A stretch of DNA of 53,949 nucleotides, taken from Neophaeotheca triangularis. Its lineage: Eukaryota. The stretch's first letter is position 1. Each line of letters opens with the position of its first letter. The translations under genes were made by a program, and so were the position numbers. Shown here piece after piece: positions 44,586 through 49,975 of this stretch. The stretch spans positions 186,001 through 239,949 of the forward strand of contig BAAIJX010000036.1 in assembly GCA_054600435.1 (NCBI GenBank), given 5' to 3'. The notes beneath the pieces were generated by a model. That model was not told where the DNA came from. It made no database searches and worked only from the letters and a program-made list of their open reading frames with translations.

Positions 44586-44883
44586 CAGCGCAAATGTGGG
44601 ATGGATCAGAGTCACACGCTCAGATTGTCATGTTATTGCAGCATCTTCATCCGGAAAACGCAGCAATGCTTGAAATCGAAGATCTAGGAGGTCTCACTTC
44701 CTACACTCCTGAAGAGGCAGGCAAAGGCGATGTAACGCGTGCAGGCCCCGGCCATACCCGGCGTGTTTCAAACATTTGGGAGGCTTAGTAAGCAGCACAT
44801 CACCCTGAAATGGAAATGTCGTTTCGTCTTATCTTCTGCAAATCTTTTGACTGCTACTTATCCCTCACACCTTGATGTACCAT

Positions 44884-47427
44884 ATGCTACCGCTCTATAT
44901 CAGGAGGACGGGGATCTCGCCACGAGTCTTTCAGCAAACATGCCGTACCGCAACGACACAAGCGATCAACCAGCCCGATGATAGCTCCCGAGGCGGTCGA
45001 CGTCGAATACGTGCAGCCCGAACCACCTCCCCTCCGTCGAGAGCTCAGGATGCGCCACAAAGATTGATTAGTCAAACAAAGACACAGGCTTTCGGGAGTG
45101 AAGATGGGATTAACTATTTCGACCAAGATCCGGAGACTGGTGAGCGGAGGAGAGTCGACAAAGACCCGGACGAAATGGAGGCTGAGTACATGAGGAAACG
45201 CATCAAAGAGATGGATGCCGAGCTTAAGACGTATGAGAGCGGTCAACATGGCGGACTGGACGAGTCTATTCTCAGTGTACTCTCTCCCGCCGAGCGTGCA
45301 AAGGTCACGAAAGCCTATGAAGAGCAGCAGAAGAGATTGTCGGCTGTTCTTGCGGATTTGACCGTTCAGCCTTTGGCTTGGTTCTCACAGAGAGAGGCCA
45401 ATGCGGTTACAAAACTCAACCAGGATCTCCAAGAAGTAGCGCTCCACCCTGAGAGTGCTCAAAAACTAGGCGATCTGAGGAAGAGGTACAAACGAGCATT
45501 GCTTTGCCTGCCCAGTATCATTAGCATTCTACCTGCGAAGGCTGAATCGCTAGTATGGCAAGCATTTGGAGCAGGACCTCATCGAGACGGCGACCTTGCA
45601 GGACTGGCGCACCAGAAGCAGCAAGCTGGGATTCCACTCAGCGTTGATCAATCAATAACCGCTATCGAGGCCAATTGGAAGAACGGAAACCGGGGAGAAG
45701 CTCTCAATTTGCTGCAGAGTCTTGAAACAGGCCCGCAACGTAACGACCTTTCTGTGCTGCGCTTGAAGGTATTCCTTTTCACTGACAGTAGGCGCTATGA
45801 CGACTGCCTTCAAACGCTGAAAACCATATTCGAATTGTCTCCACGTCACGACCCACGTGTTGTAATGCACCTTATTATCGGCGCGAGCGAAGGCGGGAGG
45901 ACGCATCTTTCGTTTGCAATGTACATTTGGATGCGCCAGCGCCTTGGGAACGACATGACGATGCAGGACTATGATGCCCTTTCACTACATTATCTCGTAT
46001 CAGGCAAGAAGGACCTCGCGCTCGCAGTCTTTCGCGATCTGATGTTCAGCATGATGCCGGCCGATGCGGTTGAGACGAAACCCGCTCAAGGTCGCGAAGA
46101 GATGAAAGGTCTGTACGATGTAGTGCTGGGCCGCCTGGAATTGTTACGGAGTAGCAGTAGCTCTGCGGAGGAGGCCAACAATCTGTCAATGAAAGCTCTC
46201 ACTGCTCTCCCAGCATCCTGGCAGAACAAGTTCTTTTACGCTTCGTGGTTGAAGAAGCTGATTGGTGGTGGACACATCGACCAGGCCGTGATGGTCGTCG
46301 AGCTGATGTTCGAGCGAGCTATCAGACCTGATGCCAAACATCTCAATGGACTCATAGGTGCTCTGTTCCGCACTGGCCTCGAAGCAGATAAAGCGCAGGC
46401 GAAGACACTTGGCTGGACGATGATACAAAGGCGGCTTGACTTTGTTCAAGAACAAGACAAGAATGGACAGCTCTCTGAAGCCATAATATCTGCTCGAAAG
46501 GAAACCTTGATAAGCGGACCGCGATCTGACCCAGCTTGGAAATTGCGCAAGATGCCACGAGCCAATATCGAGACTTTCTGCGTACTAGCCGAACACTATG
46601 CAGTCGACCAGAGCATGGACCAGTTACCCCAGCTGGAGCGTCTACTGGAAGCGGCAAGGATATCAATGAACACTTACTTCATGAACCAACGCCTAGTAGC
46701 CATGGAAAACGCATCAGCACACGACTTATGGGACAAAGTGTCTAACCAGTTCTCCAGAGTACAGCGAGACATGCAGACGTTTGGCATCCTCTGGAACCGG
46801 CAGATCGAGCTCTTGGTCCAGGTGCACCGCAAAAAGGCCGAGCCTGGTGGCTTCCCAACACCGCGACAGCTTCTCGCAAAAACGATCCGCTGGTCCCGCC
46901 ACCCAGGATCTGCAAACGTCGAGTATAAGGAACTTGAGCGACCATGGTACGAGACAATTATCCGATGCTTCTGCTTCCGCCGCGATGTCTCTGGAGTCCT
47001 GGTAGCCATGCACGCGCTTAGAGAGCAATTCGGAGTCTTCCCCGATGACGAAACCCGCAGACTTCTTATTGTGACGGTCGCGAGCCTCAAAAACGACGCC
47101 GAGGCCGACGGGTCGCAACGCACGGGCCGTGTGAGACTTCTAGGAGGCCGACGCTTCAAGCCCATCGAACACACCTTGGACAGAGTTGGAGCGGAGTTGG
47201 ACACGTTGATGAGACAGCGGGTGGCGCGTGGTGCGCTGGATGCTGATCAGGGATTGAACGATATCAACCTTTTGTCTGAGTTCTTGAAGCAGCACATGCA
47301 GAGGGCCTCCGGTGGCAAGAACGCGAGGGAGGGGATTCTGAAGGCCAAGCATGAAATAGGGGTCGAGGACATCACGACGGGAGATGTTTCCGTGCTGGAT
47401 GCTTGGGGCAAGGATTCAGCGCAGTGA
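44884..47427 (+). CDS. Probable mitochondrial pentatricopeptide-repeat (PPR)-like protein
   Basis: About 850-aa helical ORF with an Arg-rich N-terminus and PPR-like segments (VELMFERAIRPDAKHLNGLIGALF; RANIETFCVL). The start codon is uncertain (44875 or 44884). Confidence 0.65.
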   Translation: MLPLYIRRTGISPRVFQQTCRTATTQAINQPDDSSRGGRRRIRAARTTSPPSRAQDAPQRLISQTKTQAFGSEDGINYFDQDPETGERRRVDKDPDEMEAEYMRKRIKEMDAELKTYESGQHGGLDESILSVLSPAERAKVTKAYEEQQKRLSAVLADLTVQPLAWFSQREANAVTKLNQDLQEVALHPESAQKLGDLRKRYKRALLCLPSIISILPAKAESLVWQAFGAGPHRDGDLAGLAHQKQQAGIPLSVDQSITAIEANWKNGNRGEALNLLQSLETGPQRNDLSVLRLKVFLFTDSRRYDDCLQTLKTIFELSPRHDPRVVMHLIIGASEGGRTHLSFAMYIWMRQRLGNDMTMQDYDALSLHYLVSGKKDLALAVFRDLMFSMMPADAVETKPAQGREEMKGLYDVVLGRLELLRSSSSSAEEANNLSMKALTALPASWQNKFFYASWLKKLIGGGHIDQAVMVVELMFERAIRPDAKHLNGLIGALFRTGLEADKAQAKTLGWTMIQRRLDFVQEQDKNGQLSEAIISARKETLISGPRSDPAWKLRKMPRANIETFCVLAEHYAVDQSMDQLPQLERLLEAARISMNTYFMNQRLVAMENASAHDLWDKVSNQFSRVQRDMQTFGILWNRQIELLVQVHRKKAEPGGFPTPRQLLAKTIRWSRHPGSANVEYKELERPWYETIIRCFCFRRDVSGVLVAMHALREQFGVFPDDETRRLLIVTVASLKNDAEADGSQRTGRVRLLGGRRFKPIEHTLDRVGAELDTLMRQRVARGALDADQGLNDINLLSEFLKQHMQRASGGKNAREGILKAKHEIGVEDITTGDVSVLDAWGKDSAQ

Positions 47428-47996
47428 GTGAGTGAGTGAAACTTGTACCGTGTAATCTATCTCTCTGTACTCTCTGTACTATCTGTATCATACTGTATCA
47501 ATACAACAGCTTTGCTCAAGTCGATACCACTGCATCCGCCCGTCACTTCACAATGGCATCCACGCACGAGCCTGCCTCATCACGAGCCCGCTTCCCGCTA
47601 TCAAGCAGCGCAGTCATTCCGAGTGGGAACCCCAGCTGTTGTACAACATCTTATTGCGCCTTTCATTCTTGGTTTTGAGAACAACCCCCACCTCGACAGG
47701 CCGCAGGGGTACGTTCGACTTCGCTCAGGGCAGTGGTGGGTGGAGGGAAGAGTCCTCGGCGATGCGAGGGCGTTTGGCTTGCTTCCGGTGCAAAGCCCGA
47801 GAATGTCGAGATTCGATTTGTCCAGCCCTCTGTGCCGTCGTGCCGGGCGTCCTGGATTGCTAGCTTGCTAGTTCGGGTGGTCGGGGGGCACTTTTTTGTC
47901 ATCTGCCGTAGTAGTCGCTAGTGCTGGCTTTGATGTGGAAAGAAAAGGATATGCGGACTTGACAATGGAAATAGCATTGGTATTGGAAGTTTTTTT

Positions 47997-48077
47997 TTAA
48001 GCTACAGTGCACTTGAACGGCAAACCACACGGGCCCTCGCTCTTGTTTTCATCCCTCTCCTGCGGCTGTGTAGAAGT

Positions 48078-48121
<44 letters not shown>

Positions 48122-48260
48122 GCTGCTGCTGACCTTGCTCTTTCTTAGGCTCCTGCTTGGATTCCTGGCCGGCACCAGCAGTCGCAGCAGTGACGGCGTC
48201 GTCGTCTTGCTGCCTAACCTCTTCCTGAGGGGCCTGCCTTCCGGCGGCGCTGCCATCTAG
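47997..48260 (-). CDS. Predicted stop-codon readthrough extension (87 codons, Q18, C-terminal CaaX CTVA) of the PST2/YCP4-family gene
   Basis: TGA-CTA-G context; frame stays open to TAA at 47999-47997. Confidence 0.75.
48078..48131 (-). repeat. (CAG)3(CAA)15 trinucleotide repeat
   Basis: Seen directly; reads as Q18 in the readthrough frame. Confidence 0.95.
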
Positions 48261-49119
48261 TCACGCGTTGAAGTTGACCTTGTTCACGGCGCCGAAGAAG
48301 GCCTTGCCGTGCTCCTGGGCGAGCTCGAGCTCCTTGCCCGTGGGCTGGCGCGATCCGTCACCGGCCTGAATGTAGTACATTAGCAACTCTTCGGGGATGA
48401 GAATATTCGAAAGGTTAGATGGTCTTACGGCAAAGGTTCCAGCACCCCAGGCGCTTCCACCGCGGACCTCGCTGAGGTCCGTCATGAGGGAGAAGACGGT
48501 CTTGTAGCCGAGCGGCACGTAGATGATACCGTGGTGAGCAAGAGTGCTCATGGCATTCATGGCGGTGCTCTCCTGGCCACCTCCTTGCGAGGCGGTGGAG
48601 ACGAAGATACCAGCGTACTTGCCCCAGTAGCCACCTGTCTGCCATTGCTTGCCTATCACACAAGGACATTAGAAACCGAGTCGGACCTAGGAATGCTAAG
48701 GGGGCTTGGATTACCAGTCTTGTCCCAAAAGGCCTTCCACTGGGCCGGGAAGTTACCGTAACGGGTCGGGATACCGAAGAGGAAAGCATCGTACTGCTCG
48801 AGCGTGGCGGGGTCCTCGAGGACAGGGATGCCGGTGGGCTTGGGCGGGGCGTACATCTTCTCGAGAACCTCTTGCGGGAGGGTCTCAGCAACCTGGTACA
48901 GGTCGCAAGTGCCGCCGGCGGCCTCGATACCCTTCTTCTCGGCCTCGGCGAGCTGCTGGATGTGGCCGTACATCGAGTACTAGATGAAGCATTGTTGTCG
49001 ATCAGCAATGCTGTCGCGGTTGGATCTTGCAGCGGGGCAATGAGAGCGAGACAAAGCAAAGATGGTTCTGATTCGGTGGGGGATGGACTTACAAAAACAA
49101 TGGCGATCTTAGGAGCCAT
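48261..49119 (-). CDS. PST2: Flavodoxin-like NAD(P)H:quinone oxidoreductase (WrbA/Pst2/Ycp4 family), 206 aa; exons 49119-49093, 48979-48715, 48652-48429, 48365-48261
   Basis: [69 protein letters not shown]. Confidence 0.95.
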
Positions 49120-49975
49120 TTTGGATGGTATATTGCGGGGTGATGGATGTGGATTAAAGGAAAGATATGGTCGATGGAATAATGATGAGGAGGAAATGAA
49201 GGGCCAGCAGGTTGTTTATGTAGGTACTACGTAGGTATATGTATCTGTATCTACTACTACTACCTATCTTTGCCTTTCAATCCACCGCCAAACGTTAAAA
49301 TGATCAAATCTAGATTTCCCGATGCGGTAATTAACCTGGAATCTTCGACGCGGCCGAAGCTTGCCGAAGCTGCTGGAGCTGGAGCGATTTCTAAGTCAAG
49401 CGTGGTCGAGCGCGTCGAGGTTAGAAAGATGATTAATTAACTATAAGTTCACAAAGCTTACAAAGTGAGCTAAGGTATTGTAACTCACTGTACCTTACCT
49501 ATCTAGTGGAGGTAGTCTGTAACTTGCCTCTCCTACAAACCTACTAGTATAGGTAAGCAAAAAAGTATGTATACGCAGAACAGGACAGTAGTCGGTGTAC
49601 CCAACCCACTCCTTGTCAAGTTGTATATAAGTGCAGAGTGTGGAGTCCAAGTCCCGAGAAATTCATCGTACCTGCATGCCCGGCTTGACTCGTAAGCTAC
49701 CATACCTTTTCCCTACCTTACTAACTTACAGAAAGACTGGAAGCAGCTACAAGTACATCCTATGTTTCACTTATTAGTAGCCTCCCTTCTACTGCACTAT
49801 ACATCAATATATGCGTCAGGTCCCTAATCCGTGACTTACTTGCAAGCCAATTACGACTTAAAAGACTGTCAACTGGAAGCCAGATGAGGACCTAGACAGC
49901 TCCGCAAACCGCCCTCGCATGGGTATTGCGACCAAGAAACGCCCCCTTCAATCGAGAAGCTAGCACCATACCCCC

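What the first reader, a model, noticed from the sequence alone, without database searches (positions are those of the whole stretch)
47997..48263. Stop-codon readthrough (UGA-CUAG) may add a polyQ linker and CaaX lipid anchor to the Pst2/Ycp4-family quinone reductase
Seen in sequence: the 206-aa ORF ends ...VNFNA-TGA CTA G. The same frame stays open for 87 codons: LDGSAAGRQAPQEEVRQQDDDAVTAATAGAGQESKQEPKKEQG-Q18-TSTQPQERDENKSEGPCGLPFKCTVA-TAA. It ends in a CaaX box (CTVA) with a second Cys six residues upstream. Established: UGA-CUA(G) is the high-efficiency readthrough context, known in fungi mainly for making cryptic peroxisomal PTS1 isoforms. In S. cerevisiae the paralog Ycp4 differs from Pst2 by a low-complexity tail ending in a Cys-containing CaaX-type lipidation motif. 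Inference: one gene here makes both a Pst2-like 206-aa form and a Ycp4-like 294-aa prenylated/palmitoylated form. The minor anchored subunit could tether the oligomer to the plasma membrane. I do not know of a described case of readthrough creating a CaaX anchor, and standard annotation would miss it.
Basis: partly seen in the sequence, partly recalled or inferred. Interest (0 to 1): 0.92.

Follow-up and report, generated by a model that had tools for sequence, protein, structure and literature searches.

The report
Leaky stop adds lipid-anchor tail
A fungal quinone-detoxifying enzyme gene ends in a known "leaky" stop signal followed in frame by a tail carrying a lipid-anchor motif. The same arrangement is kept in many distant relatives, so one gene probably makes both a soluble and a membrane-tethered form.

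Summary
A minus-strand, four-exon gene for a 206-aa WrbA/Pst2-type NAD(P)H:quinone oxidoreductase ends in TGA CTAG. The frame then stays open for 87 codons, ending GPCGLPFKCTVA-TAA.

Spliced RNA contigs from three runs carry the TGA and run on past it unspliced, so it is not an assembly error. No joint removing the stop was seen.

Among 80 related metagenome loci:
- 14 have exactly TGA-CTAGAT after the core, and 2 have TGA-CTGCA.
- TGACTAGATGG is an island of 88-100% identity in poorly conserved flanks.
- The base before TGA varies, so it is not a splice donor.
- No tail-less family locus with a fungal-type core end has TGA-CT.

Two Sordariomycete-like loci reach the same tail through a last intron whose donor carries the stop. 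Yeasts use a separate YCP4 paralog with a similar Cys-x-K-Cys-aaX end.

Best reading (about 0.78): conserved programmed UGA-CUAG readthrough makes a minor Ycp4-like, lipid-anchored isoform. Translation of the tail and its lipidation are not shown. My six literature searches found no report of this.

The parts
49093..49119 (-). Exon 1 (ATG at 49119-49117; MAPKIAIVF)
   Evidence: Sequence. RNA contig joint 48979/49093 in runs X1, X4 and X3.
48715..48979 (-). Exon 2, the flavodoxin-like core
   Evidence: Pfam Flavodoxin_1 30.2 bits and FMN_red 26.8 bits, both above cutoff. Joints.
48429..48652 (-). Exon 3
   Evidence: Joints 48651/48714 and 48364/48428, each in 4 runs.
48264..48365 (-). Exon 4 ([34 protein letters not shown]), the end of the 206-aa form
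   Evidence: P0002 ends at the same residue.
48253..48263 (-). Leaky stop and its context, TGA CTA GAT GG
   Evidence: Identical in 13 of the 14 TGA-CTAGAT loci; L002 differs at one base (GATGA). Per-base identity is 0.88-1.00 here against 0.31-0.75 in the flanks across 16 sequences. Matches the UGA CUA(G) readthrough motif (PMC4207609).
48000..48260 (-). 87-codon in-frame readthrough extension (low-complexity spacer plus anchor motif)
   Evidence: Homologous extensions sit in the same frame in 17 loci.
48078..48131 (-). Q18 tract (CAG/CAA repeat) inside the spacer
   Evidence: Absent from the closest relative, L041.
48000..48035 (-). GPCGLPFKCTVA: conserved upstream Cys plus CaaX box (CTVA)
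   Evidence: GPCG[LM]Px(K/G)Cxxx ends 17 related loci and the annotated long forms. Compare yeast YCP4 ends such as ...SGCAKCIIM.
47997..47999 (-). TAA, the stop of the extended form

Best explanation
The gene encodes a WrbA/Pst2-type flavodoxin-like NAD(P)H:quinone oxidoreductase. Most ribosomes stop at UGA and make the 206-aa soluble enzyme. The stop sits in the known weak-termination context UGA-CUA-G, which here is conserved as far as TGACTAGATGG. A fraction of ribosomes therefore insert an amino acid and continue for 87 codons.

The extension is a disordered, fast-evolving spacer. It ends in a conserved Cys and a CaaX box (GPCGLPFKC-TVA). The extended 294-aa form would then be prenylated at the CaaX Cys and probably palmitoylated at the upstream Cys, which would tether it to the plasma membrane like yeast Ycp4.

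The same short/long pair is reached in three ways:
- an alternatively spliced last intron in Sordariomycete-like relatives;
- gene duplication (PST2 versus YCP4) in budding yeasts;
- readthrough in this gene and its relatives.

Shown: the sequence arrangement, its presence in spliced mRNA, its conservation, and homology of the tail. Inferred: readthrough itself, lipidation, and membrane location.
For: 1. Family. NF002999 174 bits and TIGR01755 168 bits for P0002, both above cutoff. Pfam hits on exon 2. Ortholog P0020 matches solved yeast Pst2, 5mp4, at E 3e-78.

2. mRNA. Contigs with intron 3 removed run unbroken from 48364 to 48131 (X1, X2) or 48150 (X3) with 0 differences. X1 and X2 extend 28 and 25 letters further. 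No joint removes the TGA.

3. Conservation. Of 80 loci, 14 have TGA CTAGAT (13 distinct sequences, since L003 equals L005) and 2 have TGA CTGCA. Every one has an in-frame extension of 50-85 codons opening at the stop and ending in CaaX. All 17 tail-motif loci found have the tail in the core's frame.

4. Identity island at TGACTAGATGG. All 14 use CTA for Leu and GAT for Asp, so the conservation is at nucleotide level. The base before TGA is G, C, T or A, so there is no conserved GT donor.

5. Specificity. No other locus has TGA CT, except bacterial-like L045, which has a 4-codon extension.

6. Intron scan. Canonical introns that would bypass the stop and keep the frame were found in 1 of 17 readthrough-type sequences (L007). 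They were found in 2 of 2 Sordariomycete-like controls.

7. Substitutions. Third-position differences are about twice those at positions 1 and 2 in aligned tails, for example 7/7/14, 13/7/25 and 25/22/41.

8. Known biology.
- UGA CU(A)(G) drives readthrough in Ustilago and human cells (PMC4207609, passages and section 6).
- C. albicans Ycp4 has a roughly 90-aa extension ending in CAAX, and FLPs sit at the plasma membrane (PMC4556627, passages).
- S. cerevisiae Ycp4 is listed as a substrate of the Ras palmitoyltransferase Erf2 (PMC5364179, Table 4 passage).
- Named YCP4 proteins end ...C-x-K-C-I-I-M.
Against: - There is no protein-level or ribosome-footprint evidence. Nothing here shows that the tail is translated or lipidated.
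- RNA evidence is from assembled contigs, which drop rare variants, so a minor spliced isoform cannot be excluded.
- I did not lay the region 3' of 48131, so it is not shown that the mRNA reaches the CaaX codons.
- Each extension alone is only modestly unlikely to be open: 121-826 of 5000 shuffles reach the observed length. In 3 loci one other frame also has no stop.
- The third-position excess comes from protein-guided alignments, which favour it.
- The loci are unnamed metagenome contigs. I saw no DNA of a named genome other than the window.
- Named protein models outside Sordariomycetes bridge the stop with predicted introns. If any of those introns is real, that would favour splicing.
- CTVA, with X = A, is not among the most typical CaaX ends.
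Confidence: 0.78

Rival explanations
1. The tail is joined by alternative splicing of a cryptic last intron, as in Sordariomycetes, not by readthrough. The short form would be the unspliced or retained-intron product.
For: Sordariomycete-like loci L010 and L015 have ...GGT GCG TAA with a GTGCGT donor, a GCTAAT branch and 54-75-nt introns that lead to the same tail. P0027 (205 aa, ends AFGA) and P0028 (250 aa) are identical up to AKAFG, after which P0028 carries the tail. Named models in Alternaria, Penicillium and Botrytis bridge the stop with introns. The window has a possible in-frame 51-nt GTGACT...TTAG stretch at 48264-48214 (read).
Against: Spliced RNA contigs of 3 runs keep 48131/48150-48364 intact, and no joint was seen there. 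The base before TGA is not conserved, so there is no GT in 5 of 14 TGA-CTAGAT loci. The relaxed intron scan found candidates in only 1 of 17 sequences, against 2 of 2 controls. Splicing would not require TGA-CTAGATGG, nor an extension that opens exactly at the stop in all 16. The bridging points of the named models differ between species, as predictor artefacts would.
Confidence: 0.09
2. The UGA is recoded at the RNA level: A-to-I editing to UGG, as in stop-loss editing of filamentous ascomycetes. The long form would then come from edited transcripts.
For: Stop-loss A-to-I editing exists in Fusarium (PMC13123824; title and start of abstract only). It would also need an in-frame tail.
Against: RNA contigs of 3 runs show A at that place, although contigs drop rare variants. 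It would not explain the strict conservation of CTAGATGG after the stop. From recall, not tested here: fungal editing prefers U before the edited A, as in UAG, whereas here it is G.
Confidence: 0.04
3. The tail is an untranslated remnant, or an RNA-level 3'UTR element, left from an ancestral Ycp4-like gene. Only the 206-aa protein is made.
For: No translation evidence. Single extensions are only 2-17% unlikely to be open by shuffling. Most annotations call only the roughly 205-aa form.
Against: 16 diverged loci keep the frame, the openness from the stop onward, and the peptide-level GPCGLPxKCaaX end, while the spacer DNA is unalignable. A relic would decay. An RNA element would be conserved as nucleotides, not as a frame plus a peptide motif.
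Confidence: 0.04
4. The TGA is a sequencing or assembly error, or a private nonsense mutation of this strain.
For: None found.
Against: The TGA is present in RNA contigs of three studies, in the annotated protein end, and at the homologous place in 16 other loci.
Confidence: 0.01

Closest known systems
Ycp4 of budding yeasts (S. cerevisiae, Candida albicans): flavodoxin-like quinone reductase with a lipidated C-terminal tail
   Same: Same enzyme family. A low-complexity C-terminal extension of about 50-90 aa ends in two Cys and a CaaX box: named YCP4 proteins end ...SGCAKCIIM or ...SFCSKCIIM, and the window ends ...GPCGLPFKCTVA. For C. albicans Ycp4 the authors note the CAAX and a plasma-membrane location (PMC4556627). 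S. cerevisiae Ycp4 is listed as an Erf2 substrate (PMC5364179).
   Different: In yeasts the tail is part of the ordinary reading frame of a separate paralog, so it is constitutive. Here a stop codon separates core and tail in a single gene. The GPCGLP spacing between the two Cys differs.
Cryptic peroxisomal (PTS1) isoforms made by UGA CU(A)(G) readthrough in fungi and animals (Stiebler et al. 2014, PMC4207609; Freitag et al. 2012, recalled and not read)
   Same: Same stop context (UGA CUA G). Same logic of a minor, differently localised isoform from one mRNA. The same alternation between readthrough, alternative splicing and a constitutive signal occurs in different lineages (the paper's Fig. 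2C legend notes species where the PTS1 is in the main frame).
   Different: The signal added here is a lipid-anchor (CaaX plus Cys) motif on a 50-87-aa spacer, not a PTS1 on a short extension. The target would be the plasma membrane, not the peroxisome. The conserved context is longer (TGACTAGATGG).
Predicted prenylation signals in readthrough extensions of Drosophila (one extension, PMC3840789) and Arabidopsis MT1C (bioRxiv 10.1101/2021.11.09.467898)
   Same: A CaaX-type signal beyond a stop codon, suggested to move the protein to membranes (passages).
   Different: Those are single in-silico predictions from genome-wide lists. The passages I read showed no conservation and no link to a paralog with a proven lipid tail. 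Here the arrangement is kept in 16 diverged loci and matches a known lipidated relative.
Sordariomycete orthologs with an alternatively spliced last intron (P0027/P0028; L010, L015)
   Same: Same gene, same tail (…EGPCGLPxKCVIL), same short/long pair.
   Different: The stop (TAA) lies inside a GTGCGT splice donor, and a canonical 54-75-nt intron joins the tail. There is no TGA-CTA context.

Membership tests
WrbA / type IV NAD(P)H:quinone oxidoreductase (fungal Pst2/Ycp4 flavodoxin-like proteins) | Match to the family HMMs above the curated cutoff | tested here: met
   P0002, which is the window's product with intron 3 retained: NF002999 174.3 bits (cutoff 141) and TIGR01755 168.1 bits (cutoff 132.5). 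Exon 2: Flavodoxin_1 and FMN_red above cutoff.
WrbA / type IV NAD(P)H:quinone oxidoreductase (fungal Pst2/Ycp4 flavodoxin-like proteins) | Full-length similarity to a solved family member | tested here: met
   Ortholog P0020 (83% identical to the window over exon 2) matches 5mp4 (yeast Pst2) at E 3.3e-78 over residues 3-201, and E. coli WrbA at 1.8e-49. I queried P0020, not the window protein itself.
WrbA / type IV NAD(P)H:quinone oxidoreductase (fungal Pst2/Ycp4 flavodoxin-like proteins) | FMN binding and quinone reductase activity | not testable with these tools
   Needs biochemistry.
Ycp4-type (tailed) flavodoxin-like protein | Low-complexity C-terminal extension ending in Cys...Cys-a-a-X | tested here: met
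   The 87-aa extension ends GPCGLPFKCTVA. Named YCP4 ends are C-x-K-C-I-I-M or CC-x-x-M.
Ycp4-type (tailed) flavodoxin-like protein | Tail encoded within the main open reading frame | tested here: not met
   TGA at 48263-48261 separates core and tail, in DNA and in RNA contigs. It therefore works like Ycp4 only if the stop is bypassed.
Functional translational readthrough at UGA CUA(G) | UGA stop followed by CUA G | tested here: met
   TGA CTA G at 48263-48257. Motif as defined in PMC4207609.
Functional translational readthrough at UGA CUA(G) | Stop context and in-frame extension conserved among orthologs | tested here: met
   14 loci TGA CTAGAT and 2 loci TGA CTGCA, all with in-frame CaaX-ending extensions. 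Identity island.
Functional translational readthrough at UGA CUA(G) | Mature mRNA contains the stop and the extension | tested here: inconclusive
   Spliced contigs of 3 runs contain the stop and at least 130-158 nt beyond it.
Functional translational readthrough at UGA CUA(G) | Extended protein or ribosome footprints detected; reporter readthrough above background | not testable with these tools
   No Ribo-seq, proteomics or reporter data were available.
CaaX prenylation substrates | Cys at -4 with an aliphatic residue at -2, at the very C-terminus | tested here: met
   The window ends CTVA. The 16 related TGA-CT loci end CVIL, CSIL (three), CDIM (four), CTIL, CTVI, CEIL, CTVA, CEIM, CTIS or CSVS, always with I or V at -2.
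CaaX prenylation substrates | Actual farnesylation or geranylgeranylation, and palmitoylation of the upstream Cys | not testable with these tools
   Needs labelling or mass spectrometry.
Alternatively spliced last intron (Sordariomycete mode) | Canonical donor at the stop, branch site and acceptor restoring the tail frame | tested here: not met
   0 candidates in the window under relaxed rules, against 3-4 in each of L010 and L015. No joint in RNA contigs.

The most novel reading that the evidence does not exclude
A programmed UGA-CUAG readthrough, conserved as TGACTAGATGG, may be ancient and widespread in Pezizomycotina flavodoxin-like quinone reductases. Tail-bearing relatives are nearest to named proteins of Dothideomycetes, Eurotiomycetes, Leotiomycetes and Lecanoromycetes, including the Alt a 7 allergen group. 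It would make a minor prenylated and palmitoylated isoform that tethers this tetrameric antioxidant enzyme to the plasma membrane. Evolution would have swapped three mechanisms for the same soluble/anchored pair: readthrough, an alternatively spliced stop-containing intron (Sordariomycetes) and gene duplication (yeast PST2/YCP4). This would be the first conserved case of readthrough creating a lipid anchor.
Probability: 0.65. Interest if true: 0.85.

Novelty: new variant of a known kind. Interest (0 to 1): 0.8.

Why it matters
Functional stop-codon readthrough in fungi is known mainly for hidden peroxisomal signals. A conserved readthrough that adds a lipid anchor would be a new use of the mechanism.

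It would also explain how single-copy Pst2-like enzymes of filamentous fungi reach the plasma membrane. In yeasts these enzymes protect lipids by reducing ubiquinone and matter for virulence (PMC4556627).

It has a practical side. Genome annotations either miss the long form (about 205-aa models) or invent differing introns to reach it. Metagenome gene callers write a W at the stop.

The three routes to one isoform pair (readthrough, splicing, duplication) make a clean natural experiment on how isoform ratios evolve.

Tried and rejected
- **Own genome:** none is held, so paralogs in the same genome could not be searched.
- **Earlier findings of this scan:** three look-ups gave nothing on this gene. 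The readthrough notes shown were on phages.
- **RNA 3' end:** I laid only 48131-49250, because the tool says it turns away long repeats. The CAA/CAG tract and everything 3' of it were left out. The poly(A) site and coverage of the CaaX codons are therefore untested.
- **Run X4** covered exon 4 only down to 48321. It says nothing about the stop.
- **Strict intron scan:** found 0 of 17 candidates, but recovered only 1 of 2 positive controls. I replaced it with the relaxed scan.
- **Pfam on the extension alone:** no family, as expected for low complexity.
- **Selenocysteine at UGA:** rejected. Fungi lack the machinery according to PMC4207609; I ran no SECIS search.
- **A 19-26-nt 'intron' ending at CTAG**, and a 105-nt in-frame intron from GTGACG at 48361: considered and rejected. 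The first is too short. The second would delete the last helix, and it is absent from the RNA contigs.
- **Downstream RNA structure:** not tested.
- **Structure prediction, complex prediction and the representative-protein search:** not used. They would not bear on readthrough.
- **Literature:** searches for readthrough with CAAX, prenylation, flavodoxin-like plus quinone, Alt a 7, Pst2 and Ycp4 gave no report of this case. The PMC papers' supplements (e.g. S1 Fig of PMC4556627, Tab. S1 of PMC4207609) I did not request.
Full report
**1. What is in the window**

The feature lies on the minus strand. A four-exon gene encodes a 206-aa protein:
- exon 1, 49119-49093
- exon 2, 48979-48715
- exon 3, 48652-48429
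- exon 4, 48365-48264

The exon borders are fixed by RNA contig joints. The protein ends ...KVNFNA. It is followed by TGA (48263-48261) and then CTA GAT GG.

The frame stays open for 87 codons (48260-48000). The extension has a low-complexity stretch, a run of 18 Gln (48131-48078), and the end ...DENKSEGPCGLPFKCTVA. TAA follows at 47999-47997.

An NCBI protein from Neophaeotheca triangularis (P0002, 227 aa) is identical to the window's translation. It keeps intron 3 in frame and stops at NFNA.

**2. The enzyme**

Exon 2 matches Flavodoxin_1 and FMN_red above cutoff. P0002 matches NF002999 and TIGR01755 (NAD(P)H:quinone oxidoreductase type IV, WrbA) above cutoff. A close ortholog, P0020, matches solved yeast Pst2 (5mp4) at E 3e-78. 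The gene is therefore a Pst2/Ycp4-family flavodoxin-like quinone reductase.

**3. Is the stop real, and is it spliced out?**

Sixteen runs hold part of the stretch. I laid four of them on 48131-49250. I left out the CAA/CAG repeat and the 3' part, because the tool turns away long repeats.

- Contigs of X1, X2 and X3 (three studies) have intron 3 removed. They run unbroken from 48364 to 48131 (X3 to 48150) with no differing letter.
- X1 and X2 go on for 28 and 25 letters more.
- The only joints in the gene are the three known introns. A fourth listed joint, in one X2 contig laid with 4-6 other letters, has 118 letters replaced rather than cut out.

So the TGA is in mature mRNA, and the main transcript does not splice it out. 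Contigs cannot exclude a rare spliced form. I have no evidence that the mRNA reaches the CaaX codons.

**4. The tail is a real protein tail elsewhere**

Searching with exon 2 gave many orthologs of about 205 aa, and also Sordariomycete proteins of 244-266 aa. The longer proteins have C-terminal extensions ending EGPCGLPxKCVIL or GPCGLPSKCVVQ.

P0027 (205 aa, ends ...AKAFGA) and P0028 (250 aa) are identical up to AKAFG. After that point P0028 carries the tail. This is the signature of a retained versus spliced last intron.

**5. The decisive comparison**

I scanned metagenome contigs with an alignment of C-terminal parts. 494 of 598 pattern matches encode relatives, and the best 80 loci were kept. 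I examined all 80.

| Arrangement after the core | Loci | Count |
|---|---|---|
| TGA CTAGAT | L001-5, 7, 9, 11, 13, 14, 17, 26, 30, 53 (L003 and L005 have identical sequence there) | 14 |
| TGA CTGCA | L019, L041 | 2 |
| TAG ACC | L025 | 1 |
| ...GGT GCG TAA, with the tail reachable only or best through a canonical intron | L010, L015 | 2 |
| Contiguous tail (a yeast YCP4 ortholog) | L023 | 1 |
| No CaaX extension | the rest | 60 |

In all 16 TGA-CT loci the extension opens at the stop and lies in the core's frame. It runs 50-85 codons and ends in a CaaX box. The end is GPCGLPx(K/G)Caax in 14 of them, GSCLPKGCTVI in L007 and GPCGCTVA in L011. L025 also has a 114-codon in-frame tail. The closest tail to the window's is L041 (...STQPQPRDENKSEGPCGLPFKCSVS).

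None of the remaining 60 loci has TGA CT, apart from bacterial-like L045, which has a 4-codon extension.

**6. Pattern of conservation**

I anchored 16 sequences (the window plus 15 loci) at the stop. TGACTAGATGG shows 0.88-1.00 identity per base. Flanking positions show 0.31-0.75.

All 14 TGA-CTAGAT loci use CTA for Leu and GAT for Asp, so the constraint is on nucleotides. The base before TGA is G, C, T or A, so there is no conserved GT donor.

The spacer is essentially unalignable, yet it is always stop-free in frame. Each extension alone is open in 121-826 of 5000 shuffles. The other two frames mostly carry 1-6 stops, although three loci have one other frame with none.

In aligned tails, third-position differences are about double those at positions 1 and 2. 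That alignment was guided by protein, which favours this result.

A relaxed search for canonical introns that bypass the stop and keep the CaaX frame found candidates in 1 of 17 readthrough-type sequences (L007) and in both Sordariomycete-like controls. A stricter version recovered only one of the two controls.

**7. Breadth**

A profile of the read-through C-terminal parts (TGA read as X) found 73 longer proteins. I read 22 of them. Named ones come from:
- Aspergillus, Penicillium, Paecilomyces
- Alternaria, Pyrenophora, Phyllosticta, Teratosphaeria, Aureobasidium
- Botrytis, Sclerotinia, Lachnellula
- Letharia, Flavoplaca, Agyrium
- Fusarium

Outside Sordariomycetes, none of the named models contains the x-LDG junction. 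Most skip the stop at points that differ between species. Two (P0142, P0135) may run on in the main frame; I saw no DNA for them. Three unnamed metagenome-called proteins read W-LDG or W-IHG at the stop, and one of these (P0124) also has W at the final stop. That indicates a TGA=W caller.

By best BLAST hit, the loci sit nearest to the following (identities are only 40-62% over the piece):
- Alternaria/Pyrenophora: L003, L014, L030, L053 (for L014 and L053 as the second hit)
- Leotiomycetes: L017, L026
- Letharia: L009
- Teratosphaeria/Aureobasidium: L041, L019

I saw no DNA of these named genomes, so taxon statements are approximate.

**8. Link to Ycp4**

L023's relatives are named YCP4 in Candida and allied yeasts. 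Their tails end ...SGCAKCIIM...SFCSKCIIM or ...GCCVMM. This is the same design: spacer, Cys, Lys, Cys-a-a-X.

- For C. albicans Ycp4, the authors note a roughly 90-aa extension ending in a CAAX box, and plasma-membrane FLPs that probably reduce ubiquinone (PMC4556627, passages).
- S. cerevisiae Ycp4 is listed as a substrate of the Ras palmitoyltransferase Erf2 (PMC5364179, Table 4 passage).

**9. Mechanism**

UGA followed by CU is sufficient for efficient readthrough in Ustilago maydis. A at +3 stimulates it in HeLa cells, and the authors suggest that G at +4 strengthens it further. UAA or UAG work less well. Selenocysteine is excluded in fungi (PMC4207609, passages and section 6).

The window and 14 loci carry exactly this motif. 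I therefore read the locus as programmed readthrough giving a minor 294-aa isoform with a Ras-like double lipid signal. Confidence is about 0.78.

| Reading | Confidence |
|---|---|
| Programmed readthrough | about 0.78 |
| Cryptic alternative splicing | 0.09 |
| A-to-I editing of the stop (PMC13123824; title and abstract start only) | 0.04 |
| Untranslated relic | 0.04 |
| Error | 0.01 |

The idea that anchored subunits tether mixed tetramers is inference only.

**10. Novelty**

Readthrough at UGA CUAG and CaaX-tailed Ycp4 are both known. Predicted prenylation signals in readthrough extensions have been listed once each for Drosophila and Arabidopsis, with no conservation shown in the passages I read (PMC3840789, PMC4973966, bioRxiv 10.1101/2021.11.09.467898; passages).

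Six searches found no report of readthrough in this enzyme family:
- readthrough with CAAX
- readthrough with prenylation
- readthrough with flavodoxin-like and quinone
- readthrough with Alt a 7
- readthrough with Pst2
- read-through with Ycp4

The library lacks most subscription journals. I rate this a new variant of a known kind, with interest 0.8.

Noticed in passing
window 48366-48428 (minus strand): The public protein model identical to this gene (P0002, 227 aa) keeps intron 3 in frame ([21 protein letters not shown]). RNA contigs of four runs splice it out, giving 206 aa.
   Followed up: yes
window 48078-48131: The Q18 tract (CAG/CAA repeat) in the tail is absent from the closest related tail (L041) and from all other loci. 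It looks like a recent in-frame microsatellite expansion inside the spacer.
   Followed up: partly
L010:1283-1357 and L015:1815-1883; proteins P0027/P0028: Sordariomycete-like relatives carry the stop (TAA) inside a GTGCGT splice donor and reach the same CaaX tail through a 54-75-nt intron with a GCTAAT branch. The short/long pair there is made by intron retention versus splicing.
   Followed up: partly
proteins P0123, P0126-P0128, P0131, P0133, P0134, P0138, P0139, P0158, P0170, P0176: Named long-form models in Alternaria, Penicillium, Aspergillus, Botrytis and others join core and tail at different points and never contain the x-LDG junction. These look like predictor introns placed to skip the stop.
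   Followed up: no
proteins P0121, P0122, P0124: Metagenome-called proteins read W at the leaky stop (W-LDG or W-IHG). P0124 also reads W at the terminal stop, which indicates a TGA=W gene caller rather than a sense codon.
   Followed up: no
L025:722-1067: One relative has TAG ACC instead of TGA CTA, followed by a 114-codon in-frame Thr/Ala-rich tail ending GPCGMPAKCMIQ. The way this stop is bypassed is unclear.
   Followed up: no
L019:1550 and L041:563: The two loci whose nearest named proteins include Teratosphaeria (both), Aureobasidium (both) and Penicillium (L041) have TGA CTG CA rather than TGA CTA GAT. They still have the UGA-CU core of the motif.
   Followed up: partly
L006 and L008 (same contig); also L018, L029, L067: Family members with ordinary stops (TAA or TAG) and no tail. 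L006 and L008 are two copies on one contig. L018 has the Alternaria-type core end (AKAHP) but TAA and no tail, so tail-less paralogs coexist.
   Followed up: no
window 47422-47441 (plus strand): The convergent upstream gene (ORF 44851-47427) ends in a short GTGA repeat (cagTGAgtgagtgagtga). Only about 570 nt separate its stop from the TAA of the extended form.
   Followed up: no
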